DNA of 64,000 bases, from IMG/VR virus record IMGVR_UViG_3300035498_000944; one strand, 5' to 3'. The notes below the pieces were generated by a model. The model ran no database searches, had not been told where the DNA came from, and saw nothing but the letters and a program-made list of their open reading frames with translations. Below, piece by piece: positions 7,271-64,000 of this stretch (positions within the stretch are counted from its first letter, which is position 1; every line of letters starts with the position of its first letter). A program made the translations under genes and the position numbers. The stretch comes from a virus. Taxonomy: Duplodnaviria; Heunggongvirae; Uroviricota; Caudoviricetes.

Positions 7271-8602
7271 TTAATCTAAGAAAGGCTCATTAGCCTTTGC
7301 ATCAGCTTCAAGTTTCTTTTTAAGTAAGTCTGGGATATCAATACCAGTAGAAGATTTAATGATACTCATTACATTAGTAGCACCATCAAGAACTGCATTT
7401 GACATTTTTGAGATATTCTCTCCACCACCGACAACTGTAACATTATCTATAGCACTAAGAGGCTTAGCAACACTCTCAGCAACCTGTGGAAGCTTCTCAG
7501 CCACAATGTCAATCATAGCGGCAGAGCCATATTGCTTGTAAGCTTCTGCTTTGATCTTCATGGCTTTTGCCTCAGCTTCACCCTTAGCAAGTATAACAGC
7601 AGCTTCTGCATCACCCTTCATTTTTATAGCAGCAGCTTCTGCCTCAGCTTCGACTTTCTTTTGTTCTGCAATAGCTTGAGCTTCAATGATCACACGTTCC
7701 TTCTCTGCCTCTGCAGGTTTAATAACAGATGCAATAAGTTCCTTCTCTTTTGTCTGAGCCTGCTGTATAGCGAGTTGTTCTTCCTGCTTAGCAATTATCT
7801 CTTTCTGGCGAATGTCTTCAAGTACACCAGCTGCATCAGCTTTCTTTGTAGCTTCTGCTTGCTCACCACGATATTGCTCAAGACTAAGATGCTTATATTT
7901 AACTGAAGCAGCAATTTCTGTATCAGCTAGAAGCTTAGCCTTCTTACCATCTCTATCAGCCTGAGATGTCTGAATATCTGTATCTCTCTGCTTTTCAGCT
8001 GTAGCGATGTCAGCCTCTGCTTTAGATGCTGCTGTCTGCTGAGCAGCTTTGTTTTCAAGATACTTAGATGATGGAGTGGCAACTTTAGCCAGAGTATAGG
8101 ATATAAGCTCAAGACCCATCTTAGCCATATCATCAGCAGTACCTTGCTTTACATTAGCAGAAAACTTTTCCATGTCAGCAATGATATCATCAATTGTCAT
8201 AGTAGCAACAATTGAACGAAGCTGACCTATAAGAACTCTTGTTACAGATTCTGCTATCTTGTTCTTAGTATCCTTCTGAGAACCTTGACAGAATTGTTCT
8301 ACAGCAGTCGCAACAGCCTTAGGATTTGACGCAACTTTAACCATTGCTGTACCATACACGTCAACAAGAAGACCACCTTGTGAAGTTGACTCTTTAATCT
8401 CAACTGTAAGCGGTATAGATTCAAGTGATATAATACAAGTCTTTTCAATTCCAGGTATAATAAAAGAACCTTTACCTATGAGGGTACGAGGTTTTAAACC
8501 TGTAACCTGAATAGCTTCATCCGCATGTGGAGACCTCCAACAGATAATAAAAAATAAGATAACAGCTATGATTATAGTACCTGCAATAATAACATATAAC
8601 AT
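7271..8602 (-). CDS. flotillin-like SPFH/Band-7 protein (FloT-like)
   Basis: N-terminal TM segment, SPFH-like core, then a long Ala/Glu/Lys-rich coiled coil (AEAEAAAIKMKGDAEAAVILAKGEAEAKAMKIKAEAYKQYG) typical of flotillins. GGAGG RBS upstream. Confidence 0.7.
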   Translation of the reverse strand: MLYVIIAGTIIIAVILFFIICWRSPHADEAIQVTGLKPRTLIGKGSFIIPGIEKTCIISLESIPLTVEIKESTSQGGLLVDVYGTAMVKVASNPKAVATAVEQFCQGSQKDTKNKIAESVTRVLIGQLRSIVATMTIDDIIADMEKFSANVKQGTADDMAKMGLELISYTLAKVATPSSKYLENKAAQQTAASKAEADIATAEKQRDTDIQTSQADRDGKKAKLLADTEIAASVKYKHLSLEQYRGEQAEATKKADAAGVLEDIRQKEIIAKQEEQLAIQQAQTKEKELIASVIKPAEAEKERVIIEAQAIAEQKKVEAEAEAAAIKMKGDAEAAVILAKGEAEAKAMKIKAEAYKQYGSAAMIDIVAEKLPQVAESVAKPLSAIDNVTVVGGGENISKMSNAVLDGATNVMSIIKSSTGIDIPDLLKKKLEADAKANEPFLD

Positions 8603-12825: not shown

Positions 12826-12843
12826 CTTTCTTGTTGATATACT

Positions 12844-13995: not shown

Positions 13996-14034
13996 TCACC
14001 TTTCATCAAATAAAAAATTTTCTTGCGTATTTCT

Positions 14035-15477: not shown

Positions 15478-15501
15478 TTTGCGTTTTAACCCTTTCGTAA
15501 T

Positions 15502-17130: not shown

Positions 17131-17157
17131 TCACCAAGTACCTGAGATATAATTTTC

Positions 17158-18456: not shown

Positions 18457-18508
18457 TATAAAACAACACCTTTCTCTGAGTGTTAACTTTTCTCTATAAT
18501 TTATCTTA

Positions 18509-19381: not shown

Positions 19382-19401
19382 CTTCCTAACAACTCCTTCA
19401 T

Positions 19402-19518
19402 TTATTCTTCACAATCCAAGTGAACCATGTATCCCATCTTCGTAAGCCTATATCTATCAGAGTCATATATATGCTGTCCACATATATGACAATAACATAT
19501 AAACTTCTGTTTAGGCAT
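19402..19518 (-). CDS. small zinc-ribbon-like protein of 38 aa (MPKQKFICYCHICGQHIYDSDRYRLTKMGYMVHLDCEE). Not in the supplied ORF track.
   Basis: ORF in the 210-nt gap between LRR paralogs 9 and 10. The C.C..CG...Y...........H..C pattern is paralogous to the ORF at 23437..23574. A weak RBS (AAAGGAG) lies further upstream. Confidence 0.35.
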   Translation of the reverse strand: MPKQKFICYCHICGQHIYDSDRYRLTKMGYMVHLDCEE

Positions 19519-19591
19519 ATAACCATATAGTATCTTCATTTTGTCTCATGTTTTCTCCTTTACTCATTTTAATGACTCTACTAAGCTAATA

Positions 19592-20458: not shown

Positions 20459-20478
20459 TTAAAACAACTCCTTTTCAA

Positions 20479-21885
20479 TTACCAAATACCTGAGACACAA
20501 GTTTCCCAATTAAAGTAATCTATAGCTGGATAGCTTCGAACAAGTTCTCCATCATCATATACATGTATAGTTAAATTCTGGAAATTATCTATAATCCTCT
20601 CATTAGAAAATTGTGTTCCACGTAATTTTTGATCACATTTTAATCTATCTTCAAGTTCTTCATTTATATACAAATTGTTTAATGAACTACAGTTATACAA
20701 CATATTACACATTAAATTTATATTTGAAATATCGAAGTTGCTTATGTTTAAACTGTCAAGACTCTCACATCCAAAAAACATATCTGTCATATTAGTGACT
20801 TTAGAAGTATCAAAACTATTCAAATCCAAGTATTTCAATTTACAGCAATTACAAAACATTCCTGCCATATCTGTAACATTTTCCGTATTGAAATTGCTTA
20901 TATCTAAAGAGTTTAGATTACTACATCCGGAGAACATAGCAACTGCATATATTAAATTAGATGTGTTAAAATTATTTATGTTTAAACATGCTAAACTCTT
21001 ACATTTAGCAAACATAGCAATTGCATACACTAAACTAGACGTATCGAAGTTACTTAAGTCTAGGCTTTGCAAATTACTGCAATCCTCAAACATTCTAGAC
21101 ATATCTGTTACACTAGAGGTATTGAAATTACTTAAATCTAAATATGTTAAACTACTACAACCTTCGAACATACTTGACATGCTTGTAATATTTGAAGTGT
21201 TGAAGTTACTTAAGTCTAAATAGACTAAACTACTACAACCGTCAAACATTTCAGACATATTTGTAACATTAGTGGTATCAAAATCATTAATGTCTATAGC
21301 TGATAATCTCTCACAATGATAAAACATGCTAGTCATCTCTATAACATTAGAGGTATTGAAATTACTAATGTTTAAAGATGACAAGCTTGCACAATTATAA
21401 AACATATAAGATGTATCTGTAACCCTAGAAGTATTGAAATCGGAAAGGTCTAGATTAGATAACTTGTTACATTCCTTAAACATACCTGCCATATCTGTAA
21501 CATTTGATGTGTCAAAACTACTGAGATCCAAAAATTCTAGACAAGGACACTCACTAAACATGTATGCCACAGCTGTTACATTAGTAGTATTAAAACTGCC
21601 TAAGTTTATAGAGATTAGTCTATAACATTCATAAAACATAGCGGTTGTATCAATTACATTAGATGTATCTATGATATCACTTAAATCTAGGGATTCCAAT
21701 CTGTCACACCAAGCAAATAATCTAGAACAGTCATCTGGAAGATATACTTGATAGCCCGCAACATAAGTTGGTACTATCAAACTACCTGACATATCTGTAT
21801 CCTTTACTTTAGTTATCTGAATCCAATCATCACCATATGTATATTCAAATATTTTACCAAAATCATCGAAAGACATTTCACTCAT
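20479..21885 (-). CDS. BspA/DUF285-like LRR repeat protein, paralog 11 (468 aa) with C-terminal cassette
   Basis: N-terminal module, repeats, and the shared C-terminal module. The 3' 100 nt are identical to paralog 7. Confidence 0.75.
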   Translation of the reverse strand: MSEMSFDDFGKIFEYTYGDDWIQITKVKDTDMSGSLIVPTYVAGYQVYLPDDCSRLFAWCDRLESLDLSDIIDTSNVIDTTAMFYECYRLISINLGSFNTTNVTAVAYMFSECPCLEFLDLSSFDTSNVTDMAGMFKECNKLSNLDLSDFNTSRVTDTSYMFYNCASLSSLNISNFNTSNVIEMTSMFYHCERLSAIDINDFDTTNVTNMSEMFDGCSSLVYLDLSNFNTSNITSMSSMFEGCSSLTYLDLSNFNTSSVTDMSRMFEDCSNLQSLDLSNFDTSSLVYAIAMFAKCKSLACLNINNFNTSNLIYAVAMFSGCSNLNSLDISNFNTENVTDMAGMFCNCCKLKYLDLNSFDTSKVTNMTDMFFGCESLDSLNISNFDISNINLMCNMLYNCSSLNNLYINEELEDRLKCDQKLRGTQFSNERIIDNFQNLTIHVYDDGELVRSYPAIDYFNWETCVSGIW

Positions 21886-21905
21886 TCTAAAACAACTCCT
21901 TTCTT

Positions 21906-22550
21906 TTAGGGTAGATTCATATCTTGTTCAAATTGAGTTTGTAATGTATCATTACCATATAAGTCTTTTAAACTACTACAGTCTCTAAACATATTCTCCA
22001 TAGTATCAACCTTAGAAGTGTCAAAACTACTTAAATCTAGTTTTCTTAGATGTTTACATTTAACAAACATATGCGACATTTCATTGACGCTAGAAGTATT
22101 AAAACTACTTAGGTTCAAAGATTTTAAACTCATGCAATCCGCAAACATACCAGACATATCAGTAACATTATGAGTATCAAAATTGCTGACATCTAAGGAT
22201 GTTAAACTATCACACCACCTAAACATACCAGACATATCAGTAACATTAGAAGTATTGAGATTGCTAACATCTAAGAATGTTAAATTATGACAACCTCCAA
22301 ACATCTCACACATGTTAGTAACATTTGAAGTGTCTATAACATCACTTAAATATAGAGATTTCAATCCTTCACAGTTAAAAAACAGATCAGAACAATCGTC
22401 AGGTAAATAAACTTGATAGCCCTCAACATGAGAAGGTACCATAAGTGTACCTTGCATATCTTTATTTTTCACCTTAGTGATCTGAACCCAATCATCACCA
22501 TATGTATAGTCAAATATTCTATTGAATATTTCAAAAGACATTTCATTCAT
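21906..22550 (-). CDS. BspA/DUF285-like LRR repeat protein, paralog 12 (214 aa)
   Basis: N-terminal module plus about 6 repeats. Confidence 0.75.
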   Translation of the reverse strand: MNEMSFEIFNRIFDYTYGDDWVQITKVKNKDMQGTLMVPSHVEGYQVYLPDDCSDLFFNCEGLKSLYLSDVIDTSNVTNMCEMFGGCHNLTFLDVSNLNTSNVTDMSGMFRWCDSLTSLDVSNFDTHNVTDMSGMFADCMSLKSLNLSSFNTSSVNEMSHMFVKCKHLRKLDLSSFDTSKVDTMENMFRDCSSLKDLYGNDTLQTQFEQDMNLP

Positions 22551-22580
22551 TCTGTATCAACTCCATTATGTATATAATTA

Positions 22581-23411
22581 TTATTTCCAATAAACTTCTG
22601 CAGGACAGCCGTCGAACGTAGACATGGCTGATATTCTTTTATGTCTAACAAAGTTGCTAAAATTAATTTGTTTCAGACTCTCACAATAGGCAAACATTTC
22701 AGATATGTCTGTAACACTTGATGAGTCGAAACTACTTAAATTCAAATAGGTTAACTTTTCACAATAACCGAACATTCCAATCATGTTTGTGACATTAGAG
22801 GTGTTAAAGTAATTTACATATAAACACTCTAACTCGTGACAACGATAAAACATGTAATACATATTTTGTACATTTGATGTTATGAAATTATCAAGATTTA
22901 AACTCTTTAATCTTTTACACCACATGAACATGTAACTCATATCTGTAACATTAGAAGTATCGAAGTTGGATAAATCAAGATATGTAAGATTACTACAACC
23001 GTAAAACATCTCTGACATATCAACAACATTAGATGTATTTAAGCTGACTAAATCTAAATCTGCTAGAGAGGTACAATGAGAAAACATAGCATGCATATTA
23101 CTAACATTAGAAGTATCGAAGTTGCTAATGTTTAATACCTCTAAACTACAACAGTTAAAGAACATTCTAGATGCGTTAGTGACATTAGATGTATCTACAA
23201 TATTATGTAAATCGATTTCCTTTAACTGTGTACCTTCAGCAAATAGATCTGTGCAATCATCTGGTAAATAGACCTGATAATCATCTACATATGAAGGAAC
23301 AACTAGTCTAGTTAGTTTACCATCATTCTTAAATTCAGTTATCTGAATCCAATTATCTGCACATGTGTATTCAAATAACCTTCCAAATTCATCGAAAGTC
23401 ATATTGTTCAT
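22581..23411 (-). CDS. BspA/DUF285-like LRR repeat protein, paralog 13 (276 aa)
   Basis: N-terminal module plus repeats. Confidence 0.75.
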   Translation of the reverse strand: MNNMTFDEFGRLFEYTCADNWIQITEFKNDGKLTRLVVPSYVDDYQVYLPDDCTDLFAEGTQLKEIDLHNIVDTSNVTNASRMFFNCCSLEVLNISNFDTSNVSNMHAMFSHCTSLADLDLVSLNTSNVVDMSEMFYGCSNLTYLDLSNFDTSNVTDMSYMFMWCKRLKSLNLDNFITSNVQNMYYMFYRCHELECLYVNYFNTSNVTNMIGMFGYCEKLTYLNLSSFDSSSVTDISEMFAYCESLKQINFSNFVRHKRISAMSTFDGCPAEVYWK

Positions 23412-23436: not shown

Positions 23437-23574
23437 TTATTTACTAGTACATTCTTTGTGACGTATAAAACCCCCATCACTGTATGTATAAACTTCATAA
23501 CCATATACAGGCTCACCACAAATATCACAGTAACCCTTTATAATAGGTTTAGGTGTTGCAATAAAAACTGACAT
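23437..23574 (-). CDS. small zinc-ribbon-like protein of 45 aa (MSVFIATPKPIIKGYCDICGEPVYGYEVYTYSDGGFIRHKECTSK). Not in the supplied ORF track.
   Basis: Strong RBS GAGGAGG lies 9 nt upstream of the ATG. The CxxC...HxxC pattern is paralogous to the ORF at 19402..19518. Confidence 0.55.
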   Translation of the reverse strand: MSVFIATPKPIIKGYCDICGEPVYGYEVYTYSDGGFIRHKECTSK

Positions 23575-23602: not shown

Positions 23603-24592
23603 CTAACAGAGTTTATATCCACAATTAGGACAGAAGTTAGCACCTGTAGTTTTACTTCCACAATTAGGACAGAAATTTGGTATCTGTCCAGACTGCTGGA
23701 AATTATTTACCTGCTGATTTGACTGACCTTGCTGAGGCATAGACATAGGATTACTATTCATCATATGTTGAGCCATTTGCATACCCATCATTAACCCAGC
23801 CATATCTCTAGCTGTACCACTAGCAACATTTCCGCCTGACGGCTTTGTTAAGCTATCGAGCATCTGCATCTGTGAATATCTCTGCATATCTCCTACCATA
23901 GAGTAGGAAGCATTCTTTTGTACCATTGCTTGAACTTCATCTGGATATGTAACACTGCCAATATTGAACTGTCTTATAGAAATACCAGTATCAACAATGT
24001 TCATATCAAGTTCCTTCATAATACCTTGTCCAATCTCAGATGAATTTGCCTGAATGTTGAACATGTCTTTACCCTCTTTTACAATCCACTTACTAAGAAG
24101 TTGATCAAGAACAGATGTTATACGAATCTTAATATCATCAACACAATAAGAGTCTTTTACACCTGCAATTCTTTCAACTGTTGCAGTATAGTTTGTGAGT
24201 TTAAATACTAGGGTGCCATTTGCTCTTATAGGCATACCACCTGGCATATTTGGATTAGGTATATTAATTGGTTGTTTAGTTCCCCATCTTATGGTGAACT
24301 CTCGTGTATTTATAAAAAGAACCTCTGCTCTCATACCTGTATTAAATCCAAACTTAAAACCTTTAAGCTTAGATAAAAATGGTATGATTTGAGATTCAAT
24401 ATCAAACTCTCCTGTTTCTGTGAAGATGCCTTCTATTTTACCCTGATACATAAATATAGCATTCTGACCAGGTCTTATTATAAGTCTACTTCCTTTTTTG
24501 ATTTCATTGTTATGCCACTTGTAGAATATTTGGTCATCCCTATATTCTTCCCACTCTACAACGTTAGCTAACTGACTTGTAAAAAATCCCAT
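23603..24592 (-). CDS. SPFH/Band-7 domain protein with C-terminal zinc ribbon (COG4260 / B. subtilis YdjI-like)
   Basis: SPFH-like core, Met/Gln-rich linker, and a C-terminal CPNCGSKTTGANFCPNCG zinc ribbon. Last gene of the PspA operon, as in pspA-ydjGHI. Confidence 0.65.
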   Translation of the reverse strand: MGFFTSQLANVVEWEEYRDDQIFYKWHNNEIKKGSRLIIRPGQNAIFMYQGKIEGIFTETGEFDIESQIIPFLSKLKGFKFGFNTGMRAEVLFINTREFTIRWGTKQPINIPNPNMPGGMPIRANGTLVFKLTNYTATVERIAGVKDSYCVDDIKIRITSVLDQLLSKWIVKEGKDMFNIQANSSEIGQGIMKELDMNIVDTGISIRQFNIGSVTYPDEVQAMVQKNASYSMVGDMQRYSQMQMLDSLTKPSGGNVASGTARDMAGLMMGMQMAQHMMNSNPMSMPQQGQSNQQVNNFQQSGQIPNFCPNCGSKTTGANFCPNCGYKLC

Positions 24593-24612
24593 AAGGAATC
24601 TCCTTTCTTATT

Positions 24613-25335
24613 TTAAAAATGTCCGCCACCATGGCTTCCACCTCCACCTCCACCATATCCACCTGAACGATTACTACTCTTTCTAGTCTTCCTTATATCA
24701 GTCCAAGTGTAATCCATACGGAGTAGTGTAGCATTGCTTTTAGAGGTATCAAGAAAAGTCTCACCTGTGGCTCTTTTAATACCTGTAGACTCTTTGTATT
24801 GAAACCACAATATTATCATAGAACTTATTAGAGCTACACAAAAGAAGAATAAAGCTATAGGAACTATCCATATGGAAAATCCTGTAAGCTTAGGATGTTT
24901 CACACATTTATTCTCTAGCTCTAGAAATTTCATACATCCCTTGTAGTATGTACCTTTTGTGAACTTACTACGAATGCATTGATATATTAAGGTATCAATA
25001 TCAGTTGTTATTTTATCTTTAAGCAAACCATAAGCAGACACATCAATATATCTATCGTTCATGTTAACATATAACATAACACAATCAGGACTGTTAGAGT
25101 GTTGACTGTAGAAACTAGTTGCTTCAGTCTCATGCTTAGTAGTGTTGGTATTATTTGTATATATTATGACATCTATGTTTTGTTTACTCATTACTGACTT
25201 ATCATAGAAAGTTATAAGTTGAGACTCCTCCTCATTTGTCAATAATGTAGCATCATCAGCTATAAGAATGGTAGCATGAGTTGTTGTTGCAAATGTAACT
25301 ATAAAAAACAATGTTATAAAAATCTTTTTTATCAT
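24613..25335 (-). CDS. TPM-domain (YgcG/YdjH-like) membrane protein with Gly-rich tail
   Basis: Signal/TM segment, a TPM-like core (ILIADDATLLTNEEESQL...DRYIDVSAYGL), a TM segment and a C-terminal GGYGGGGGGSHGGGHF tail. Confidence 0.55.
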   Translation of the reverse strand: MIKKIFITLFFIVTFATTTHATILIADDATLLTNEEESQLITFYDKSVMSKQNIDVIIYTNNTNTTKHETEATSFYSQHSNSPDCVMLYVNMNDRYIDVSAYGLLKDKITTDIDTLIYQCIRSKFTKGTYYKGCMKFLELENKCVKHPKLTGFSIWIVPIALFFFCVALISSMIILWFQYKESTGIKRATGETFLDTSKSNATLLRMDYTWTDIRKTRKSSNRSGGYGGGGGGSHGGGHF

Positions 25336-26447
25336 GACTTTTTAGCACCTCCCGGATCCTTAGATTTTGAACGGAAGGGTTTATAATATAAATAGTATAT
25401 AACAACTGCGATTATAGAGAATACTGCCAAACATAAAGCAGACTTCCAATCAATTGCAAATCCAGCACACAAGTAGTAGATGTATCCTACTGGTATATAA
25501 CAAAGTGTTGCTATTGCTACTGTTCTAAAAACCTTTGTTGGACTTATAGGAGTCTCACCTGCGATACAGCCAGATTGACCATTCATATAAAACTTATAAG
25601 TCTTACCATCTACGTTACAACTGAATATGTATAATGGGTAATAGATTAAGTTTATTTGATTGTTTCGTTTTATAACAGCATCTGCTTTTATGTTAGCAAC
25701 TTTATAACCCTGTATACGTTGTGAGAAATAATCTACGACGAACCTTTCATTTATAGTATCAGCAACATGCTTTACTTGGCGATTATCATAATCATACCGC
25801 TTAGATCTTGTACCAGATAAAACACATGGATCAAAGTTAGTAATGTTATCATTATTAAATGGAGTTATAGCTTCCATATAATCATCATCTAATTCTTCCA
25901 TACCATCAGCAGGAATATAATTAGTTATAACATTACCAATAACTTCAGCATCAAAATGTTTTATTTCAGTTATTATATAATCACCTGAAGAATGTTTTGT
26001 AGTAGTCGTAACATCAAATAACATACTTCCACTATTTTCATAATCAAAACACCAAAATGGCATAAGATATTTATTAGTCTTTGTTATATGTATAGATTTT
26101 CTTAATTCATTTGATACAAGTGGTCTAGTTTTTAGCCAGGCTTTAAACTTCTTTTCTGCTTCTTTATCATCAAATTCAAAGGGAGCAATAAAATCAGGAG
26201 TTTGCATTGAATCTAGAACATCTGTATGTATAACCGATCTTTCACATGCTTCACAAAATCCAGATAAGATATTACCATGTGAATCAATAGGAGAACCACA
26301 ACTTATACAAAGCTGTGATTCTCCAGTATCTTTAGGCTCAATATCCAACAAACTGAAGTGTGAATTACATGAAGTACAGATCATGTCATCTGTTTGTTTC
26401 ACATAAATTAATTCTCCACCACAACTGGGACATTGATAGCTTAGCAT
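25332..26447 (-). CDS. double zinc-ribbon membrane protein (YdjG-like)
   Basis: Two zinc ribbons (CPSCGG...CTSCNSHF and CISCGSP...CEACERS) and two C-terminal TM helices. Start and stop are coupled to the flanking genes. Confidence 0.5.
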   Translation of the reverse strand: MLSYQCPSCGGELIYVKQTDDMICTSCNSHFSLLDIEPKDTGESQLCISCGSPIDSHGNILSGFCEACERSVIHTDVLDSMQTPDFIAPFEFDDKEAEKKFKAWLKTRPLVSNELRKSIHITKTNKYLMPFWCFDYENSGSMLFDVTTTTKHSSGDYIITEIKHFDAEVIGNVITNYIPADGMEELDDDYMEAITPFNNDNITNFDPCVLSGTRSKRYDYDNRQVKHVADTINERFVVDYFSQRIQGYKVANIKADAVIKRNNQINLIYYPLYIFSCNVDGKTYKFYMNGQSGCIAGETPISPTKVFRTVAIATLCYIPVGYIYYLCAGFAIDWKSALCLAVFSIIAVVIYYLYYKPFRSKSKDPGGAKKS

Positions 26448-26449
26448 AG

Positions 26450-27130
26450 TTATTTACCTGCTTTCATAGCTGCAAGCTCTGCTTCTATATCATCAGCATC
26501 ACTTGAGGCTTCACTGTCATACTTAGCTATCAATTCTGCAGTATCATCAATACGAGATGTGCTAAGTTCAGCCATAGCATTAGCTCTATCTATCATATTG
26601 TTTGCCCGTTCTTCTATTCTATCAAAGGCACCTATAGATGTTGATGCACCTGAAAGAGAAGAACCTATATTATTAATTTTCTCCTGTGTCTTAGCAACAG
26701 CTATCTTAGCCTTTATTTCCTGTCTACGGCTATTTAAATTGGATATATCTTTTACAAGCTTATCATGCATTTGACGCATCTGTTCTGCTTTTGCTTTAGC
26801 ACTTTCATGTACAGCCTTAGCAGATTCAATTCTTTTGTTAGTTTCATTCTTAAGTGCAAGAAATCTTTTTGCATCGTCATCATTGCCAGCATCAACAGCT
26901 TTCTGAGCATAATCTTTATATTTATTTGCTTCAGCTTCAAGAGCTTCAACATCTCTTCTTGTTCTCTGCTCTTCTGCCATTATAGCTGCTGTTTCAGCCT
27001 TCACATTACCAAGATCTTTCTCAAGATTTCTCATTACCTGATCAATCATTTTAGAAGGATCTTCTGCCTTGTCAAGCAAAGCATTTATATTACTTTCCAT
27101 AATGTCTTTAAAACGTGTTAAAATACTCAT
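26450..27130 (-). CDS. pspA: PspA/IM30 family protein (phage-shock protein A / LiaH-like)
   Basis: 226-aa coiled coil. MSILTRFKDIMESNINALLDKAEDPSKMIDQVMRNLEKDL is a typical PspA/Vipp1 N-terminus. Confidence 0.75.
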   Translation of the reverse strand: MSILTRFKDIMESNINALLDKAEDPSKMIDQVMRNLEKDLGNVKAETAAIMAEEQRTRRDVEALEAEANKYKDYAQKAVDAGNDDDAKRFLALKNETNKRIESAKAVHESAKAKAEQMRQMHDKLVKDISNLNSRRQEIKAKIAVAKTQEKINNIGSSLSGASTSIGAFDRIEERANNMIDRANAMAELSTSRIDDTAELIAKYDSEASSDADDIEAELAAMKAGK

Positions 27131-27149: not shown

Positions 27150-27626
27150 TTATAGAATATGTCTTATCTGCATCAAAGCCTTACCTAAAAGATTCTGACC
27201 GCTCCATCTTTCAGGATAAAATCTGTTAGGGCTTGACATAGAAAGTCCTATACCCCATATTTTGTCATGTACAGCACATTCAGCTAGTATAGCATTTCCG
27301 GTGTTTTTCAACATTTGACAAAGTTCTGGGTTTTGTTTAAACTTAAAATAATTACCTCTTAACACGACCTGAAATCTTTTATCAGACCATGTCTTCTCAT
27401 CATAGTGAACAACTTTTCTACCAAGTGCTTTTATAGCTTTTACATTGTTGCTTTCTAAAATTCTATTGGCTATGAATTGATCATTAAAGGTTATAGCTTT
27501 CTGATACATCATGTACTGCTCAACAGAATTAAAAGTAATTCCATCTGCAGTAAAATTGGATTTATACCAATTACTTAAAAAGCCATTTGGTTCATCTGGA
27601 TTATGAAAACAAATTACATTACTCAT
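27150..27626 (-). CDS. NADAR-domain (YbiA-like) ADP-ribose-processing N-glycosidase
   Basis: GFLSNWY...F.SVEQYMMYQKA...W...R...V..GN..KF.QNPEL...L..TG...L.E.....D.IWGIG matches NADAR/DUF1768 conserved blocks. Confidence 0.7.
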   Translation of the reverse strand: MSNVICFHNPDEPNGFLSNWYKSNFTADGITFNSVEQYMMYQKAITFNDQFIANRILESNNVKAIKALGRKVVHYDEKTWSDKRFQVVLRGNYFKFKQNPELCQMLKNTGNAILAECAVHDKIWGIGLSMSSPNRFYPERWSGQNLLGKALMQIRHIL

Positions 27627-28482: not shown

Positions 28483-29133
28483 TTACTTATCAACTCCTGT
28501 CTCAATTTCTATTTCTGTTGTCTTATGTGAAATTCCAAATACTTTTCTGATAGCCACTATCAATATAATTAACCAGCAAATACCCATAAAAATATATTGA
28601 TCTCTAGCACGTGCTAACTCTTTATTATACACATCATCTGGAGTGTAACCAATATACAAATAATGAACCTTTTCAGAATCTGACTTATTATAATTCATAA
28701 AAGTACAAGGAGTACCTGAATAAATTGTATAAGTCTTAGTTGTGTCATCTGAAATCCATTTAAGTTTAGAAGTATAATCTCCAACTATATCTAGCACATC
28801 CCAGTTTGGTTTATATCCACTAAAACTTGCATTGGTTCCAGGAGTTACTTCTCTACCAACTTCCATGTCATTATAGCTATAATGACCCTTTGTAAAAGTA
28901 TGATACTCTACATCTATTGTATAGGCTATATTATCAGAACTTTCTGCTGTGAAATAGCCAACACTCTCATCACTTGCACTATATAGGTAACCATTAGCCT
29001 CCACATTATCACACAACGTTCTTATGTGATCTATATTAGTCTGTATCCTTAAATGTATCTTATAAGAGAATAATAACAGCCATGCAAGTGCTACTATAAT
29101 TACTGCACGTTTTGTACCTATAGAGGATTTCAC
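28483..29133 (-). CDS. membrane-anchored protein (paralog A of a duplicated pair)
   Basis: N- and C-terminal TM helices. Shares VTPGTNASFSGYKPNWD and TPCTF blocks with 29173..29805. Confidence 0.45.
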   Translation of the reverse strand: MKSSIGTKRAVIIVALAWLLLFSYKIHLRIQTNIDHIRTLCDNVEANGYLYSASDESVGYFTAESSDNIAYTIDVEYHTFTKGHYSYNDMEVGREVTPGTNASFSGYKPNWDVLDIVGDYTSKLKWISDDTTKTYTIYSGTPCTFMNYNKSDSEKVHYLYIGYTPDDVYNKELARARDQYIFMGICWLIILIVAIRKVFGISHKTTEIEIETGVDK

Positions 29134-29172: not shown

Positions 29173-29805
29173 TTAATCCACATTTTCTGTTTTAGATTTG
29201 TCACGTAAATTAGCAATTAATGCAAGGAAATCTATTATTGCAAATATAGATAAGACAATCTCAATAAAAAGACATCCTTTATTTATATCACTTGATATAG
29301 TATTGTGTACAGTGTCAGGATCATTGTTTATGTAGATTCTATGCAGATTATAGTCAGGAGAACTATAATAAACAAATACACAAGGAGTATCATTATTTAT
29401 AGTATAAGTAACTTCCTTAGTTCCTGCAAGTGTGTTGTTACTAACTGCAGAATCTCCATAGAAATCTAACGAATTAAAATCAGGTATAAACCCATCAAAA
29501 CTAGCATTAGTTCCTGGCATTATATCTCTGTAGGATTCTGTATAATCTATACTATTTCTGTTAAAATAGCGGTCATAATATAAAGTTATGGAGTAGGTTG
29601 TATTAGCATCACTTGTGGATTTAAAATAACCCACTCCATTCTCATTAGGATCAAAATTATCTCCATCAAGTACCACAGCATTAAATAGGTTATTCACAAT
29701 GTCTAATCTCTCATTCTTCATATTTTCCATATAGACGAGACCTCTCATCAATAATAGAAGTACAACTGCTGATATGGTACACTTAATCCACTTAGTAGAT
29801 TTCAT
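29173..29805 (-). CDS. membrane-anchored protein (paralog B)
   Basis: IMPGTNASFDGFIPDFN and TPCVF blocks, with the same topology as paralog A. Confidence 0.45.
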   Translation of the reverse strand: MKSTKWIKCTISAVVLLLLMRGLVYMENMKNERLDIVNNLFNAVVLDGDNFDPNENGVGYFKSTSDANTTYSITLYYDRYFNRNSIDYTESYRDIMPGTNASFDGFIPDFNSLDFYGDSAVSNNTLAGTKEVTYTINNDTPCVFVYYSSPDYNLHRIYINNDPDTVHNTISSDINKGCLFIEIVLSIFAIIDFLALIANLRDKSKTENVD

Positions 29806-29820: not shown

Positions 29821-30570
29821 CTAAATATAAAGTTCTTTTGTCATTACTTCTGAAAAAGCTATATGATTCACAGATGATTTGTTTGGTATAGTGTATACTG
29901 CAATAGGACAGTAGATATACTCTTTGAATAATCTAGCTACAGTGTAGGGGTCCTGCTTAAATATACCACAACCAAATGCACCTAGAATTGCTACATCAAT
30001 CTTCTGATCGATGATCACATTAGATATATGCTTTATTCTTGATTCAAGAGCTTTTAAATTATCTTCATAGGAAATACCCTCTTTATAGGCATAACGCCAA
30101 TTAGGGGCTGCACAGGTTAAAACATCACACTTTACAATTCCATCTTCTTGTGGAAATATTATATCTGGAGTATAAACTAATCTATCTTCATATAAAGCAT
30201 TTTGCTGCATAGCTTTATTTTCTTTATAGTACAGGGGACATCTTGATAAAACATTGTACAAAGTAGATGCATGACATAAAGATTCCTCTTGTGTTGTTCT
30301 ACCCTTTAAAAATCCACCACCTGGATGTTTAAAAGATGCAAAGTTTAGTATGGCTTTCTTTCCATTTTTGTATCTTAGCATAGCAGATACAGAATCTTTA
30401 TCATCAAGAATAGTAAACTGTCTCTCTGGTAATTTTGATTTTCTCATATATCCAGTAGGATAAATTAGGGATCTTTCTACTGAAGACTTAATTTCTTCAC
30501 TGAAGTCTTTATCCATCTGTGCAACATGTTCATAAGCTTTCTTTACAAATGATTCTCTTTTTGAATCCAA
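29821..30570 (-). CDS. bacterial-type PARG-like macrodomain protein (DUF2263/TIGR02452-like)
   Basis: ILNFASFKHPGGGFLKGRTTQEESLCHASTLY matches the LNFA..PGGG....AQEE.LCR.S.L signature of microbial poly(ADP-ribose) glycohydrolase-like macrodomains. Confidence 0.55.
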   Translation of the reverse strand: MDSKRESFVKKAYEHVAQMDKDFSEEIKSSVERSLIYPTGYMRKSKLPERQFTILDDKDSVSAMLRYKNGKKAILNFASFKHPGGGFLKGRTTQEESLCHASTLYNVLSRCPLYYKENKAMQQNALYEDRLVYTPDIIFPQEDGIVKCDVLTCAAPNWRYAYKEGISYEDNLKALESRIKHISNVIIDQKIDVAILGAFGCGIFKQDPYTVARLFKEYIYCPIAVYTIPNKSSVNHIAFSEVMTKELYI

Positions 30571-32689: not shown

Positions 32690-32711
32690 CTTCTCTTCTT
32701 ATTTTATATAG

Positions 32712-62214: not shown

Positions 62215-63171
62215 TTACTTAAATAGTCTGCTTGGGTCACTATTAACTTTCTGTAAAAATAAAGCAAAGTGACAATAACTGTTTGGTTTTAGATTACCAA
62301 TTTTAGCTCCTTGCTTAATGGACTGATGAGCTTTAACGTCTATGGTATCTAAATGTCCATATAAAGTCTGTATGTTGAATCCATGAGATACAATAACATA
62401 TTTACCTAACTCCTCAGATTCTCCTATTTTACAAACAATACCATTTAGAGCACTGTTCACTTGTGTATTATCTGTAGCAAGAAAATCTATACCCTTATGA
62501 TTTATTAAAGTATCATCTCTTTTTGTTGTACCATACACTGTTGATATTTTAGAGTCTGGCACTGGATAAGCTATCTTACTAGTCTGTCCTATATCATACT
62601 GATTTAGATACTGAGCATATATTTTTAAAGAGCCTTCGTAAGTATTTTTAGATTGATAAAACATATCTTCTGTAATTGTGTCATCAGACTCTATTATAGA
62701 GGCTAATACATATTTATCATAAGCATCTTTCAATGCAGCTGTAGCCTCATTTAATTCATCACGTGCTTTTACATAATCTTCTTCAATACTAAAAATTTCA
62801 TCTATATCTGCATCAGCATTAACAGCAGCTACAAGAAGTTCTTCTAAATCGGATTTCTTTTCTGTTAGAGAATCCACATCTAGAGACTTCTCTGTATTTT
62901 CATATTCAGCATATAAAATAGGAGCAATCTTCTCCTCAGCCACTTTTGAATAATACATATCTTTGTAACTATTGTATGTTACATAAAGGTCTGAGAGAGA
63001 CTCTTTGGTTATGGGATTCTCAGCTTTGCTAGAAATCAATCCATAATCAAAGAGAAGGTCTTCCTCAGTAGAGGCATAGCACATTGTAGTACTTATTAAG
63101 CAAATTGCTAATGCAGAAGTTAAAAATCTTAACTTCAATAGATTACCTCCTTTAAATGAGAGTGTCCTCAT
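62215..63171 (-). CDS. secreted M23-family peptidase (peptidoglycan endopeptidase-like)
   Basis: Signal peptide. C-terminal HKGIDF, YGHLDT and CHFALF blocks match the LytM/M23 HxxxD and HxH zinc sites. Confidence 0.65.
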
Positions 63172-64000
63172 TATTAAGTATATTAATTCTCTCAGACAGG
63201 AATGAAGAGTACTGTGTTCCTGACTTAGGTGCTAAGCCCATCAACAATCTTGAAAATGCAGAATTAAGTTCATCCGTCTTACTGAACAAAACAGCTGAAG
63301 AAAATACCTGCTTGAAGTTTTGGAAAGATAAACCTGATAAGAAGTCATTTCCATATAATGGTGTATCCTTAGTACTAAGAATAGTTGGCTCAAGTTCATA
63401 ATTACAACTGTCCAAATTAGCAACCTCTTGATTAGTTAGAACAGTACCAATTGGAACTTTGCAATTATTTGACTTGTGATTTACAACAATCCATCTTGTC
63501 ATTTCTGACGCCAAAATCTCAGCATGTATAGGTGCAACAGAAGCTTGACTGAAATAAATTGTAAATATAGAATTTACAATATATCTCTGTGCTGTAGTTA
63601 TACCACCATACCTCAATAACTCACCAACATCAAGATTACCCTGAGATAAAGATAAGCCTTCACCTTTGTGCACGTAATCTTTTAAAACAGGATAACCATC
63701 AAGGCGTAACTTTCTATTACTATCACCAATCATAACAATAGTAGAGTTACCATCCTGTTCAGAGAATACCTCACCCTCAGCCCAAGATACAGGATCATAA
63801 TAAGGATTACTTGCTGTAACTTTAGTTAAGTTAATAATATCTTTAATCTTATCAAAGTCAGATGTGATATCAGCCTTAGAAGCTACACCACCCTTTTGGA
63901 AGTTTCTCATGGCTAACTGAGTACCAGGTTCACCAATTGACTGAGCAGCTATGAATCCAATAGGAAGTCCACGTATTGCTCTTCTATGAATAGAAAGATC
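63152..64000 (-). CDS. multisubunit RNA polymerase beta-prime-like subunit, C-terminal part (5'-partial; the gene continues beyond the window end)
   Basis: The reading frame is open upstream of the track's ATG to position 64000. It translates as ...[38 protein letters not shown], matching the bacterial RpoC trigger-loop block [25 protein letters not shown]. Confidence 0.75.

What the first reader, a model, noticed from the sequence alone, without database searches (positions are those of the whole stretch)
23603..27130. Complete PspA / zinc-ribbon / TPM / SPFH operon on a phage-like genome, collinear with B. subtilis pspA-ydjGHI
Four tightly coupled minus-strand genes. In transcription order they are a PspA/IM30 coiled-coil protein, a double zinc-ribbon protein with two TM helices, a TPM-domain membrane protein with a Gly-rich tail, and an SPFH/Band-7 protein ending in a CPNCG...CPNCG zinc ribbon (COG4260-like). 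To my recollection this is the gene order of the Bacillus subtilis pspA(ydjF)-ydjG-ydjH-ydjI membrane-stress operon, in which YdjI recruits PspA to the membrane. A mobile element carrying the whole module suggests it manages host membrane integrity during infection, for example delaying lysis, protecting against holin leakage or abortive-infection membrane effectors, or building a membrane-associated replication or assembly site.
Basis: partly seen in the sequence, partly recalled or inferred. Interest (0 to 1): 0.8.

Follow-up and report, generated by a model that had tools for sequence, protein, structure and literature searches.

The report
Virus-like element carrying PspA membrane-repair operon
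A large, probably viral, mobile element of Firmicutes-type bacteria carries its own intact copy of the four-gene PspA membrane-repair system that bacteria normally keep on their chromosome. This suggests the element actively keeps its host's membrane sealed while it replicates.

Summary
**Observation: confirmed.**
- Window 23603-27130 (minus strand) holds four translationally coupled genes.
- They encode PspA/IM30; a YdjG-type protein (two Cys4 zinc ribbons, two TM helices); a YdjH-type TPM protein (Gly-rich tail); and a soluble YdjI-type SPFH protein (C-terminal zinc ribbon).
- Each is homologous to its counterpart in the Bacillota pspA-ydjGHI (samGHI) operon. The order is identical in about 78 of 80 bacterial genomes checked.

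**Carrier: not a chromosome.**
- It codes on one strand only and about half its larger ORFs match no family. It has PolA and two tRNAs.
- Just past the window's right edge it encodes beta and beta' RNA polymerase subunits. Beta' is only about 27% identical to any cellular rpoC.
- No capsid, terminase or portal gene was found, so "phage" is likely (about 0.8) but unproven.

**The block is not a recent capture.**
- Four divergent elements carry it, one with the order rearranged and ydjG duplicated.
- Their copies are monophyletic: YdjI 199/200, YdjG 200/200, PspA 161/200 bootstraps.
- Codon composition matches the element.
- PspA and YdjI keep 79-95% of the residues that are near-invariant in bacteria. 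YdjG keeps under 50%.
- No sigma-W promoter is present.

**Prior art.** Lone phage PspA homologues are already known. A complete receptor, adaptor and polymer module, plus a flotillin, on such an element is new.

**Function.** The proposed role, preserving host membrane integrity during infection, is inferred and not shown.

The parts
26450..27130 (-). pspA: PspA/IM30 (ESCRT-III-type) protein, 226 aa, with no TM helix. The N-terminal amphipathic helix is conserved (MSILTRFKDIMESNINALLDKAEDP). So is the Lys in AVAKTQE, which is equivalent to B. subtilis K147.
   Evidence: PF04012: E 6.9e-36, 124 bits. End-to-end match to solved PspA/Vipp1 structures 8qbw and 6zvr, E 1e-20. Median 52% identity to the syntenic PspA of 77 Bacillota loci. 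Conserved motifs.
25332..26447 (-). ydjG-type gene, 371 aa. It encodes two Cys4 zinc ribbons (C6/C9/C24/C27 and C47/C50/C65/C68), a conserved alpha+beta core with the motif FYMNGQSG.I.G..P, and two C-terminal TM helices (310-328, 336-354).
   Evidence: Matches the ORF between pspA and ydjH in 78 of 78 bacterial loci at 21-27% identity, E <= 1.1e-26. Alignment A4. TM prediction. AF2 model with mean pLDDT 75.7 and a core of roughly 75-94. Bacterial-type homologues carry PF08271 TF_Zn_Ribbon.
24613..25335 (-). ydjH-type gene, 240 aa. It has an N-terminal signal or anchor (7-25), a TPM domain (26-139), a TM helix (157-175) and a Gly-rich C-terminal tail. It overlaps ydjG by ATGA.
   Evidence: PF04536: E 1.2e-8, 35.4 bits against a cut-off of 22.1. 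Profile-profile match to bacterial YdjH-position ORFs that BLAST missed: probability 99.7%, E 7.8e-27, 233 columns. Topology.
23603..24592 (-). ydjI-type gene, 329 aa. It encodes a soluble SPFH/Band_7_1 protein with a Q/M-rich low-complexity region and a C-terminal CPNCG...CPNCG zinc ribbon.
   Evidence: PF13421: E 9e-45. Zn_ribbon_3: E 4.5e-8. 57-64% full-length identity to chromosomal YdjI of Bacillus, Planococcus, Paenibacillus, Lachnospiraceae and Clostridium, several of which their sources name 'ydjI'. No TM helix.
7271..8602 (-). A second SPFH protein about 15 kb downstream: a flotillin (Band_7 + Flot domains, N-terminal TM 2-20). It is not contiguous with the block, but it is co-retained with the psp genes in sister element L092/L094.
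   Evidence: PF01145: E 4e-20. PF15975: E 1e-6. 68% identity to the L092/L094 copy, 66% to a chromosome-like contig (L095), and 42-46% to Clostridium species.
63152..64000 (-). C-terminal 283 codons of a 1126-aa beta'-like RNA polymerase subunit. The gene continues beyond the window. This is the marker for what kind of element carries the block.
   Evidence: L100 is 100% identical to window 60898-64000 and extends 7.7 kb further. It encodes beta' (Rpb1 domains 1, 2, 4, 5) and a beta-like subunit of at least 1180 aa (Rpb2 domains 3, 6, 7). Beta' is only 26-30% identical to bacterial rpoC and 22-28% to the beta' of 130-207 kb phages.

Best explanation
**What it is (shown).** The block is an intact copy of the Bacillota pspA-ydjG-ydjH-ydjI (samGHI) membrane-stress module. 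It has been resident on the element for a long time.

**What carries it (likely, not proven).** The carrier is a large, low-GC, virus-like element. Its contig is at least 123 kb and a sister contig is 184 kb. It encodes its own PolA, beta and beta' RNA polymerase subunits and tRNAs. It is most likely a jumbo-type phage of Clostridia-like Bacillota.

**How it works (inferred from B. subtilis).**
- The membrane proteins YdjG and YdjH form a receptor.
- That receptor recruits the soluble SPFH protein YdjI.
- YdjI nucleates and stabilises PspA (ESCRT-III-type) assemblies on the inner face of the membrane. These seal or stiffen damaged patches and preserve the proton-motive force.

**What differs on the element (shown).**
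- The block has no sigma-W promoter and no flanking terminator. It sits inside a co-directional gene train next to PARG and NADAR, two enzymes that reverse ADP-ribosylation.
- It is therefore probably expressed on the element's schedule and not in response to host envelope stress.

**Why the element keeps it (inferred).**
- The element pre-loads the infected cell with membrane-repair capacity, helped by its own flotillin.
- The membrane would then stay energised through a long replication cycle.
- It would also resist premature permeabilisation by membrane-targeting abortive-infection effectors, by holin leakage or by envelope stress.
- The polymer and the adaptor are strongly conserved while the receptor YdjG is heavily remodelled. 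This fits unchanged output with rewired input.
For: **Identity of the four proteins and their order**
-.
- Literature: PMC8581546, PMC9239133, PMC11237479 and bioRxiv 10.64898/2026.02.06.704340.

**Not a chromosome**
- All ORFs of 120 aa or more that are not shadows of a longer minus-strand ORF lie on one strand. There are two lone tRNAs.
- No ribosomal, aminoacyl-tRNA-synthetase or central-metabolism family appeared among about 70 ORFs scanned.
- PolA is only about 25% identical to its best phage-collection matches.
- Beta and beta' RNAP lie in an element contig 100% identical to the window. Beta' is about 27% identical to any cellular rpoC.

**Long residence and selection**
- Four divergent elements carry all four genes: the window, L093, L007 and L092. 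L092 has a rearranged order and a duplicated ydjG.
- Element copies are monophyletic: YdjI 199/200 among the 120 closest proteins of 5.8 billion; YdjG 200/200; PspA 161/200.
- GC3 of the block is 0.19-0.28, against 0.257 +/- 0.037 for the element. The bacterial ydjI median is 0.43.
- Retention of residues near-invariant in bacteria: YdjI 88-95%, PspA 79-95%, YdjG 41-48%.

**Regulation**
- No TGAAAC-N16/17-CGTA motif occurs anywhere in the window.
- Only 19 nt separate the NADAR gene from pspA. No flanking terminator was found.

**Membrane theme**
- The flotillin is co-retained in L092/L094.

**Relevance to infection**
- The host operon is induced by SPP1 infection (PMC11153139).
- An anti-Abi role has been proposed for a lone phage PspA (PMC9409062).
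Against: - No virion or packaging gene was recognised anywhere in about 129 kb of element DNA examined. The carrier could therefore be a non-viral element.
- It is absent from IMG/VR and INPHARED.
- There are no expression, localisation or phenotype data. Every functional step is transferred from B. subtilis.
- In B. subtilis, loss of pspA itself gives mild phenotypes, and SamGHI also affects transcription and differentiation. The selected function may not be membrane repair as such.
- The strongly diverged YdjG might no longer bind YdjI or YdjH.
- The trees are neighbour-joining on a similarity-selected sample, not maximum likelihood with broad sampling.
Confidence: 0.5

Rival explanations
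1. **Host-benefit cargo.** The element is a temperate phage, a phage-plasmid or a megaplasmid. On this reading the module, with the flotillin, raises the carrier cell's tolerance to envelope stress such as alkali, bile, antimicrobial peptides or solvents. It would be selected through host fitness and not through the lytic cycle.
For: - No virion genes were seen.
- Many neighbouring genes look like accessory cargo: 13 DUF285/LRR paralogues, acetyltransferase, isochorismatase, RibD_C and a SpoIIID-like regulator.
- The bacterial module is a stress-tolerance system.
Against: - No integrase, plasmid replication or partition gene, relaxase or T4SS family was detected among about 70 window ORFs and 46 sister ORFs.
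- Own RNAP, PolA, RNase H and ligase point to a lytic-style replication programme.
- Nearly all Bacillota already have a chromosomal copy (554 confirmed loci in one scan). A second, diverged copy adds little for the host.
- PLSDB plasmids do not carry the module.
Confidence: 0.2
2. **Membrane remodelling for the element's own morphogenesis.** PspA is an ESCRT-III-type membrane-bending polymer. With the SPFH scaffolds it could build or maintain an intracellular membrane structure, such as early-infection vesicles, a membrane-associated replication or assembly platform, or non-lytic release. On this reading it would not be repairing damage.
For: - PspA and Vipp1 form rings and rods that bud or fuse membranes (review PMC7619361).
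- Two different SPFH scaffolds (YdjI and the flotillin) are retained together.
- The element has an FtsK-like 1303-aa membrane ATPase and many bitopic membrane proteins.
Against: - There is no evidence of membrane-containing virions or compartment genes.
- No chimallin- or PhuZ-like families were detected.
- The module is so close to the bacterial repair module in PspA and YdjI that a new activity is not required.
Confidence: 0.1
3. **Anti-CBASS sink.** In Bacillus, Cap2 conjugates the CBASS cyclase onto PspA, mainly at K147, and this delays CBASS activation. A surplus of element-encoded, membrane-localised PspA could hold the cyclase inactive for longer.
For: - PMC11153139: the cyclase is conjugated to PspA at K147 in the peptide WAVAKTQER. 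YdjI co-purifies. Deleting pspA speeds up CBASS activation.
- The Lys in AVAKTQE is conserved in all four element PspAs.
- The neighbours PARG and NADAR are plausible counter-defence enzymes.
Against: - The same Lys is conserved in 68 of 81 PspAs overall, so it is not an element-specific adaptation.
- The reported effect of PspA on CBASS is subtle.
- A decoy would not need YdjG and YdjH to be retained in every element.
Confidence: 0.08
4. **Superinfection exclusion or defence.** The module would harden the membrane of an already infected or lysogenic cell against lysis-from-without, or against DNA-injection damage by competing phages.
For: - The host Psp response is triggered by phage infection.
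- Mobile elements often carry exclusion genes.
- L092 has a HEPN/MNT pair inserted inside the block.
Against: - None of the four proteins, nor the flotillin, matches any PADLOC defence model. Only the neighbouring NADAR does.
- No effector-like partner is present.
Confidence: 0.07
5. **Passive hitchhiker.** The block would be a recently captured host chromosomal fragment with no selected role. Alternatively, the window would itself be bacterial chromosome.
For: - All four proteins have clear chromosomal homologues in Bacillota.
Against: - The copies are monophyletic across four divergent elements.
- All ORFs are intact with translational coupling.
- Codon composition is ameliorated to the element.
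- The nearest bacterial YdjG is only 21-27% identical, against 38-47% between elements.
- No housekeeping genes are present, and RNAP beta' is about 27% identical to cellular rpoC.
Confidence: 0.03

Closest known systems
Bacillus subtilis pspA-ydjG-ydjH-ydjI operon, renamed pspA-samGHI (PMC8581546; bioRxiv 10.64898/2026.02.06.704340; architecture in PMC11237479)
   Same: - The same four proteins in the same order.
- The domain architectures match: PspA; 2x zinc ribbon + core + TM; TPM + TM + Gly-rich tail; soluble Band_7_1 + low-complexity region + zinc ribbon.
- Identity to the bacterial counterparts is 50-58% for PspA, about 25% for YdjG, about 24% for YdjH and about 60% for YdjI.
   Different: - It is carried on a virus-like element, not on a chromosome.
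- It has no sigma-W promoter and no flanking terminator, and it is embedded in a long gene train.
- YdjG lacks the inter-ribbon linker of about 26 aa and has a second TM helix. It keeps under 50% of the residues conserved in bacteria.
- The element copies form a separate clade.
Lone phage-encoded PspA homologues: phrog_1203 in Kuttervirus Salmonella phage SeF3a (PMC9409062), and the pspA-like gene next to terD in Jug jumbo gut phages (PMC12880540)
   Same: - A PspA-family gene on a phage genome.
- An anti-abortive-infection or stress role has been proposed for it.
- The window's PspA hits phrog_1203 weakly, at E 2.2e-5.
   Different: - Those are single genes, distantly related to cellular PspA. 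tblastn with the window's PspA at E 1e-5 does not detect them.
- They have no YdjG, YdjH or YdjI partners.
- Here the whole receptor, adaptor and polymer module is present, and it is close to the Firmicutes type.
E. coli PspF-ABCDE system and the Bacillus LiaIH system
   Same: A PspA/IM30 effector is recruited to the membrane by dedicated membrane partners under envelope stress.
   Different: - The partners differ: PspB/PspC/PspF, or LiaI.
- The window's PspA scores far below the equivalog cut-offs for E. coli PspA (93 bits against 243) and for LiaH (55 against 380).
Bacterial flotillins FloT and FloA (SPFH family)
   Same: The window's second SPFH protein (7271-8602) has the flotillin architecture: an N-terminal TM helix plus Band_7 and Flot domains. 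The literature describes both flotillins and YdjI as stress-responsive SPFH proteins.
   Different: - No NfeD or YuaF-type partner gene is adjacent to it.
- It is element-borne, at 42-46% identity to Clostridium flotillins.
Unsplit beta/beta' RNA polymerase genes of large phages such as Rhizobium phages RHph_Y65/TM30 (about 207 kb), Vibrio phage 1.031.O, Yersinia phage GN1 and Cobetia phage Carin-5
   Same: The carrier encodes full-length beta and beta' homologues that are very divergent from cellular RNAP.
   Different: - Identity to those phages is only 22-28%, and there is no other shared gene content.
- Beta and beta' are separated by two genes.
- The host range is probably Clostridia-like, not Proteobacteria.

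Membership tests
Bacillota pspA-ydjGHI (samGHI) module | The first gene encodes a PspA/IM30 (ESCRT-III fold) protein. | tested here: met
   - PF04012: 124 bits against a cut-off of 34, full length.
- Residues 1-224 align to residues 1-215 of solved PspA 8qbw and 6zvr, E 1e-20.
- Median 52% identity to the syntenic PspA of 77 loci.
Bacillota pspA-ydjGHI (samGHI) module | YdjG: two N-terminal zinc ribbons, a conserved globular core and C-terminal TM segment(s). | tested here: met
   - Two invariant Cys4 ribbons and the FYMNGQ.G motif.
- E <= 1.1e-26 to the syntenic ORF in 78 of 78 loci.
- Two TM helices.
- Pfam ribbon hits are sub-threshold for the window protein itself.
Bacillota pspA-ydjGHI (samGHI) module | The YdjG core has an NTF2-like, YpeB-related fold, as stated in PMC11237479. 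| tested here: inconclusive
   - AF2 model: mean pLDDT 75.7, core blocks roughly 75-94.
- Foldseek against PDB: no hit at E <= 0.001.
- The AFDB library was unavailable.
Bacillota pspA-ydjGHI (samGHI) module | YdjH: a membrane-anchored TPM domain followed by a TM helix and a low-complexity (Gly-rich) tail. | tested here: met
   - PF04536: 35.4 bits against a cut-off of 22.1.
- hhalign: 99.7%, E 7.8e-27, over 233 columns, against bacterial YdjH-position ORFs.
- TM helices at 7-25 and 157-175. The tail ends GGYGGGGGGSHGGGHF.
Bacillota pspA-ydjGHI (samGHI) module | [quoted passage not shown] | tested here: met
   - PF13421: 153 bits. Zn_ribbon_3: 32.7 bits.
- No TM helix.
- 57-64% full-length identity to chromosomal YdjI.
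Bacillota pspA-ydjGHI (samGHI) module | The gene order is pspA, ydjG, ydjH, ydjI in one transcription direction, tightly spaced. | tested here: met
   - Window junctions are 2 nt, a 4-nt overlap and 20 nt.
- About 78 of 80 bacterial loci have the same order.
Bacillota pspA-ydjGHI (samGHI) module | Control by a sigma-W promoter. This is the B. subtilis regulation and is not necessarily family-wide. | tested here: not met
   - No TGAAAC-N16/17-CGTA motif occurs anywhere in the 64 kb.
- Only 19 nt separate the upstream NADAR gene from pspA.
Bacillota pspA-ydjGHI (samGHI) module | PspA is recruited to the membrane in a way that depends on YdjG/YdjH and YdjI. | not testable with these tools
   This needs localisation or two-hybrid experiments. 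It is known only for B. subtilis (PMC8581546).
Jumbo or large tailed phage (identity of the carrier) | Virion and packaging genes: major capsid protein, portal, terminase and tail. | tested here: inconclusive
   - None was recognised by Pfam or PHROGs in the window, in L100, or in the sister loci L007, L092 and L094. L105 has only precomputed Pfam annotation.
- However, only about 75 kb of a contig of at least 123.5 kb could be read. The loci examined all lie in accessory, replication or transcription regions.
Jumbo or large tailed phage (identity of the carrier) | The element has its own multisubunit RNA polymerase, its own DNA replication genes and scattered tRNAs. | tested here: met
   - Beta and beta' subunits.
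- PolA, RNase H and a NAD-ligase domain.
- tRNA-Val and tRNA-Leu.
Jumbo or large tailed phage (identity of the carrier) | Genome larger than 200 kb. | not testable with these tools
   The longest contigs are 123,558 bp for the window's element and 184,105 bp for the sister. Completeness is unknown.
Catalogued anti-phage defence systems (PADLOC-DB v2) | The component proteins match a defence-system model. | tested here: not met
   - YdjG, YdjH, YdjI, the flotillin and PARG give no hit.
- PspA gives only coiled-coil noise (E >= 0.001).
- Only the neighbouring NADAR matches, to PDC-M42C at E 1e-71.
Lone phage PspA family (phrog_1203) | A significant match to the PHROG profile. | tested here: inconclusive
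   The match is E 2.2e-5, 25 bits, over residues 1-160. That shows homology at superfamily level only. The window's PspA is far closer to cellular Firmicutes PspA.

The most novel reading that the evidence does not exclude
A lineage of jumbo-type phages of Clostridia-like bacteria encodes a self-contained membrane-repair machine of the ESCRT-III type. It consists of a membrane receptor (YdjG/YdjH), an SPFH adaptor (YdjI) and a PspA polymer, with a flotillin alongside. The lineage has kept this machine through deep divergence as a counter-defence. The machine would keep the infected cell's membrane sealed against pore-forming or depolarising abortive-infection effectors and against premature lysis. 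The receptor would have been re-tuned to respond to viral signals, not host signals. This would be the first complete virus-encoded Psp system.
Probability: 0.35. Interest if true: 0.75.

Novelty: new variant of a known kind. Interest (0 to 1): 0.6.

Why it matters
**The open question.** The Psp response was discovered because phage infection induces it. Whether PspA activity helps the host or the phage during infection is still unclear.

**Why this helps.**
- An element that carries the entire PspA-YdjGHI module, and has kept it under selection, argues that membrane repair can be a virus-side asset.
- It supplies a natural set of diverged but intact components for testing that idea: conserved polymer and adaptor, remodelled receptor.
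- It links to the growing list of defence systems that kill by membrane disruption. It also links to the finding that PspA buffers CBASS activation.

**Wider significance.**
- It extends the known repertoire of jumbo-phage host-takeover genes to ESCRT-III and SPFH membrane biology.
- It points to an unsampled lineage of large elements with their own RNA polymerase. That lineage is missing from IMG/VR and INPHARED.

Tried and rejected
**Searches for relatives of the carrier**
- Megablast of window 20-32 kb against INPHARED found no match.
- Five IMG/VR scans found no relatives: YdjI alone, PolA, the YdjI alignment motifs, beta' and beta.
- Two concatenated-protein tblastn searches against INPHARED (five large proteins, then eleven mid-sized ones) gave only DnaK-like or isolated single-gene hits. 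No related genome was found.
- The single metagenome scan, using window 62215-63171, returned two unrelated contigs, L096 and L097. It was wasted.
- Searching the literature for the sample accessions found nothing.

**Searches for the module elsewhere**
- PLSDB tblastn with the concatenated module gave only partial, distant matches of 28% identity or less. The module is not a plasmid trait.
- The two INPHARED records with PspA or YdjI (MT835668.1, MT839532.1) are UNVERIFIED fragments. Their genes are closer to bacterial copies (about 61%) than to the window's, and they lack YdjG and YdjH. I rejected them as evidence of phage carriage.

**Searches for hallmark genes**
- PHROGs and Pfam on every window ORF of 120 aa or more, and PHROGs on 46 sister-locus genes, found no virion, terminase, relaxase or T4SS family.
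- Two exact-protein look-ups at the window's right edge were not on record before the third succeeded.

**Other tests**
- No sigma-W promoter motif was found.
- The sigma-70 and terminator consensus scans were not above shuffled expectation. The best promoter-like site lies inside pspA, so I did not interpret it.
- PADLOC gave no defence-system membership for the block.
- Rfam found only the two tRNAs.
- The first phylogeny script timed out. I redid it with a vectorised version.

**Readings considered and rejected**
- A bacterial chromosome or a reduced symbiont genome. There are no housekeeping genes, and beta' is about 27% identical to cellular rpoC.
- A recent host capture. The element copies are monophyletic, their composition is ameliorated, and YdjG is only about 25% identical to any bacterial copy.

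Full report
**1.

Window 23603-27130 contains four minus-strand ORFs of 226, 371, 240 and 329 aa, at exactly the coordinates given.

Pfam assigns three of the four proteins:
- The first is PspA_IM30 (E 6.9e-36, 124 bits against a 34-bit cut-off, full length).
- The third is a TPM domain (E 1.2e-8, 35.4 bits against 22.1).
- The fourth is Band_7_1 (E 9e-45, 153 bits) with a C-terminal Zn_ribbon_3.
- The second gives only sub-threshold double-zinc-ribbon hits.

NCBIfam places the PspA far below the equivalog cut-offs for E. coli PspA and for LiaH. It is a PspA-family protein, but not of either of those subtypes.

- PspA and the SPFH protein are soluble.
- The zinc-ribbon protein has two C-terminal TM helices (310-328, 336-354).
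- The TPM protein has an N-terminal anchor (7-25), a TM helix (157-175) and a Gly-rich tail.

The gene junctions are a 2-nt spacer, an ATGA overlap, and a 20-nt spacer with a Shine-Dalgarno site.

**2. Each protein is a true homologue of its B. subtilis-type counterpart.**

- *Literature.* The operon is described as pspA-ydjG-ydjH-ydjI. YdjG has two zinc ribbons, an uncharacterised core and a TM segment. YdjH has a TPM domain and a low-complexity tail. YdjI is a soluble band-7 protein with a C-terminal zinc ribbon. YdjG, YdjH and YdjI are all required to bring PspA to the membrane (PMC8581546, PMC9239133, PMC11237479). The operon was recently renamed samGHI.
- *YdjI.* The window protein is 57-64% identical over its full length to chromosomal proteins of Bacillus, Planococcus, Paenibacillus, Lachnospiraceae and Clostridium. 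Several of these are named 'ydjI' by their sources.
- *PspA.* It has a median 52% identity to the syntenic PspA. It aligns end to end with solved PspA/Vipp1 structures.
- *YdjG.* It is only 21-27% identical to bacterial copies. It nevertheless matches the ORF in the YdjG position in 78 of 78 loci at E <= 1e-26. Both Cys4 ribbons and a FYMNGQ.G motif are invariant.
- *YdjH.* This was the weakest link, because BLAST found it in only 30 loci. A profile-profile comparison used bacterial YdjH-position ORFs that BLAST had missed. It gives 99.7% probability and E 7.8e-27 over the whole length.
- *YdjG fold.* An AlphaFold model of YdjG is confident in its core. It has no detectable solved relative. 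The published 'NTF2-like' assignment could therefore not be tested here.

**3. Synteny.**

I analysed the best 80. In about 78 of them the order is PspA, YdjG, an ORF of 0.8-1 kb with a signal peptide and a Gly-rich tail, then YdjI.

**4. Local organisation differs from the bacterial operon.**

- The sigma-W consensus TGAAAC-N16/17-CGTA does not occur anywhere in the window.
- pspA starts 19 nt after the stop of a NADAR gene.
- No terminator-like hairpin flanks the block.
- The block sits in an uninterrupted co-directional train. In order: an 89-aa ORF, PARG, two paralogous bitopic membrane proteins, an unknown gene, NADAR, pspA-ydjGHI, a 45-aa Cys-rich mini-ORF, and then 13 DUF285/LRR paralogues.
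- I infer, without having shown it, that expression follows the element's programme and not host envelope stress.

**5. What carries the block.**

*The window is not chromosome-like.*
- The 64 kb is 30-38% GC.
- Every ORF of 120 aa or more that is not a shadow of a longer minus-strand ORF lies on the minus strand.
- It contains two isolated tRNAs.
- No ribosomal, tRNA-synthetase or central-metabolism family appeared among about 70 ORFs scanned.
- The families that did appear include a family-A DNA polymerase, RNase H, a NAD-ligase adenylation domain, an FtsK-like 1303-aa protein, an Hsp70-like protein and an M23 peptidase. PARG, NADAR, a flotillin and a SpoIIID-like regulator were also found.
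- About half of the larger ORFs match no family.
- The polymerase is about 25% identical to its best phage-collection matches.

*The decisive clue came from an exact-protein look-up.*
- Contig L100 is 100% identical to window 60898-64000 and runs 7.7 kb further.
- It encodes a 1126-aa beta'-like subunit and a beta-like subunit of at least 1180 aa.
- The window's last ORF is the C-terminus of that beta'.
- Beta' is only 26-30% identical to bacterial rpoC, and 22-28% identical to the unsplit beta' genes of genuine 130-207 kb phages.
- That is far outside the cellular range. It excludes a bacterial or symbiont chromosome.
- To my knowledge an element-encoded multisubunit RNAP is a jumbo-phage trait and not a plasmid trait.

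*Evidence against calling it a phage.*
- No capsid, portal, terminase or tail family was recognised. This covers the window, L100 and L105 (about 75 kb), and about 54 kb of sister loci.
- The element has no relatives in IMG/VR or INPHARED.

I put 'virus-like, probably a jumbo phage' at about 0.8.

*Host.* The flotillin's nearest cellular relatives are Clostridium species. One chromosome-like contig carries a copy at 66% identity. This suggests a Clostridia-like host.

**6. The block is an old, conserved resident of this element lineage.**

*Other elements that carry it.*
- L093 has the same order. Identities to the window are PspA 60%, YdjG 47%, YdjH 39% and YdjI 80% (the YdjI is partial).
- L007, from a 184-kb contig, has the same order. 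Identities are 59, 39, 27 and 70%.
- L092/L094, from a 45-kb contig, has a rearranged order. It runs pspA, an unknown gene, an MNT/HEPN pair, ydjI, ydjG, an 86-aa ORF, a second ydjG, then ydjH.
- L092/L094 also carries a flotillin 68% identical to the window's, a glucosaminidase, an LRR protein and PARG.
- Outside these genes the loci share almost nothing with the window.

*Phylogeny.*
- In neighbour-joining trees the element copies are monophyletic.
- YdjI: 199/200 bootstraps, among the 120 closest proteins of a 5.8-billion-protein database.
- YdjG: 200/200. PspA: 161/200.

*Rarity.*
- An exhaustive HMMER search of 1.84 billion representatives with YdjG shows a sharp gap.
- Five clusters lie at 37-47% identity and one at 32%. 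About 3,100 lie at or below 30%.

*Composition and conservation.*
- GC3 of the four genes is 0.19-0.28. That is inside the element's range of 0.257 +/- 0.037. The bacterial ydjI median is 0.43.
- The element copies keep 88-95% (YdjI) and 79-95% (PspA) of the residues that are near-invariant in bacteria. For YdjG the figure is only 41-48%.
- The element YdjG copies also lack an inter-ribbon linker of about 26 aa. In the window and P0122, YdjG has gained a second TM helix.

**7. Prior art and rarity.**

- Among 50,697 phage records, only two UNVERIFIED faecal fragments carry a detectable PspA or YdjI. Their genes are closer to bacterial copies, and both lack YdjG and YdjH.
- IMG/VR has no YdjI-type gene, even when scanned with conserved motifs.
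- PLSDB plasmids do not carry the module.
- Lone, distant PspA homologues on phages have been reported. One is phrog_1203 in a Kuttervirus, with an anti-Abi hypothesis (PMC9409062). Another is a pspA-like gene next to terD in Jug phages (PMC12880540).
- A 2025 review of bacterial ESCRT-III systems mentions no virus-encoded system.
- What is new is the complete module, its co-retention with a flotillin, and its carriage by an unsampled lineage of large elements that have their own RNA polymerase.

**8. Mechanism.**

*Shown:* an intact set of receptor, adaptor and polymer genes that are conserved and translationally coupled.

*Transferred from B. subtilis:*
- YdjG and YdjH in the membrane recruit YdjI.
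- YdjI stabilises focal PspA assemblies that protect the membrane.

*Inferred:*
- The element expresses the module on its own schedule. This would keep the infected cell's membrane sealed and energised.
- It would counter membrane-targeting abortive infection, premature holin action or envelope stress.
- Two observations fit. The host operon is induced by SPP1 infection. The neighbours PARG and NADAR are plausible counter-defence enzymes.

*Rivals.* These are host-benefit cargo on a temperate or plasmid-like element; membrane remodelling for the element's own compartment or egress; a sink for Cap2-conjugated CBASS cyclase; superinfection exclusion; and passive hitchhiking.
- For the CBASS idea, the acceptor Lys context AVAKTQE is conserved in all four element PspAs. 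It is also conserved in 68 of 81 PspAs overall.
- Against a defence role, no PADLOC model matches the block.
- Passive hitchhiking is effectively excluded by section 6.

**9. Verdict.**

The gene identities, the collinearity and the mobile, non-chromosomal carrier are right. 'Phage' is likely but unproven. The functional ideas are untested.
- As a system this is a new variant of a known kind: a viral-type clade of pspA-ydjGHI with a remodelled receptor and rewired regulation.
- Interest is moderate to high (0.6). It is a concrete, testable case that a virus-like element invests in ESCRT-III/SPFH membrane maintenance. The idea of a phage PspA as an anti-Abi factor is already in print, and no functional data exist.

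Noticed in passing
window 8672-23411 (minus strand): Thirteen tandem DUF285/BspA-type LRR paralogues, 179-542 aa each. All start with a conserved N-terminal module of about 60 aa (..F.EF..IFEYTYGDDWIQITKVKD...VPSYVEGYQVYLPDDCS.LF). None has a signal peptide. Together they take up about 15 kb directly downstream of the psp block.
   Followed up: partly
window 7271-8602 (minus strand); L092/L094; L095: A flotillin (Band_7 + Flot domains, N-terminal TM helix). It is 68% identical to the copy in sister element L092/L094 and 66% identical to a copy in a chromosome-like contig that also carries MutS2, NrdD, MiaA and PspC. It is 42-46% identical to Clostridium flotillins. No NfeD-type partner gene lies next to it.
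   Followed up: partly
L100 2-8574 (equivalent to window coordinates 63152 to about 71725): Unsplit beta-like (at least 1180 aa) and beta'-like (1126 aa) RNA polymerase subunits. They are separated by a YdjM-like membrane protein and a 323-aa unknown. Beta' is about 27% identical to both cellular and phage homologues.
   Followed up: partly
window 29821-30570 and 27150-27626 (minus strand): A microbial-type PARG and a NADAR protein lie in the same gene train just upstream of pspA. NADAR matches PADLOC model PDC-M42C at E 1e-71. PARG also lies near the psp genes in L007 and L092.
   Followed up: partly
window 28483-29133 and 29173-29805 (minus strand): Two paralogous bitopic membrane proteins, 31% identical, each with an N-terminal and a C-terminal TM helix. 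They match no family and lie between PARG and NADAR.
   Followed up: no
window 23437-23574 (minus strand): A 45-aa mini-ORF with a CxxC...HxxC pattern and a strong Shine-Dalgarno site, directly after ydjI. Gene callers call it in several exact-copy contigs. It is not present at that position in sister element L007.
   Followed up: no
window 6663-6735 and 32711-32792 (minus strand): Two isolated tRNA genes: tRNA-Val with the unusual anticodon AAC, and tRNA-Leu(TAG).
   Followed up: no
window about 6950-7205 (minus strand): An 84-aa SpoIIID-family HTH protein lies immediately downstream of the flotillin gene. It is a homologue of a sporulation regulator, carried on the element.
   Followed up: no
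window 3686-4786 (minus strand); L007 2582-3694 and 14721-15491; L092 16055-16795: A multi-copy family (phrog_8728) shared between the window and the sister elements. By my reading it carries a HipA-like kinase motif (..NEDRHMNNFGF..). It is 39% identical to an unannotated faecal 'Bacteriophage sp.' contig, MT835732.1.
   Followed up: no
L092 8215-9013 and 10001-12305: In sister element L092 a nucleotidyltransferase/HEPN pair is inserted between pspA and ydjI. In the same element ydjG is duplicated in tandem.
   Followed up: partly
window 36591-40502, 57217-58557 and 60075-61226 (minus strand): Three further genes: a 1303-aa FtsK/SpoIIIE-like protein with a long N-terminal extension; a 446-aa Hsp70/actin-fold protein (phrog_22485, E 2.6e-54); and a 383-aa protein with only the NAD-ligase adenylation domain.
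   Followed up: no
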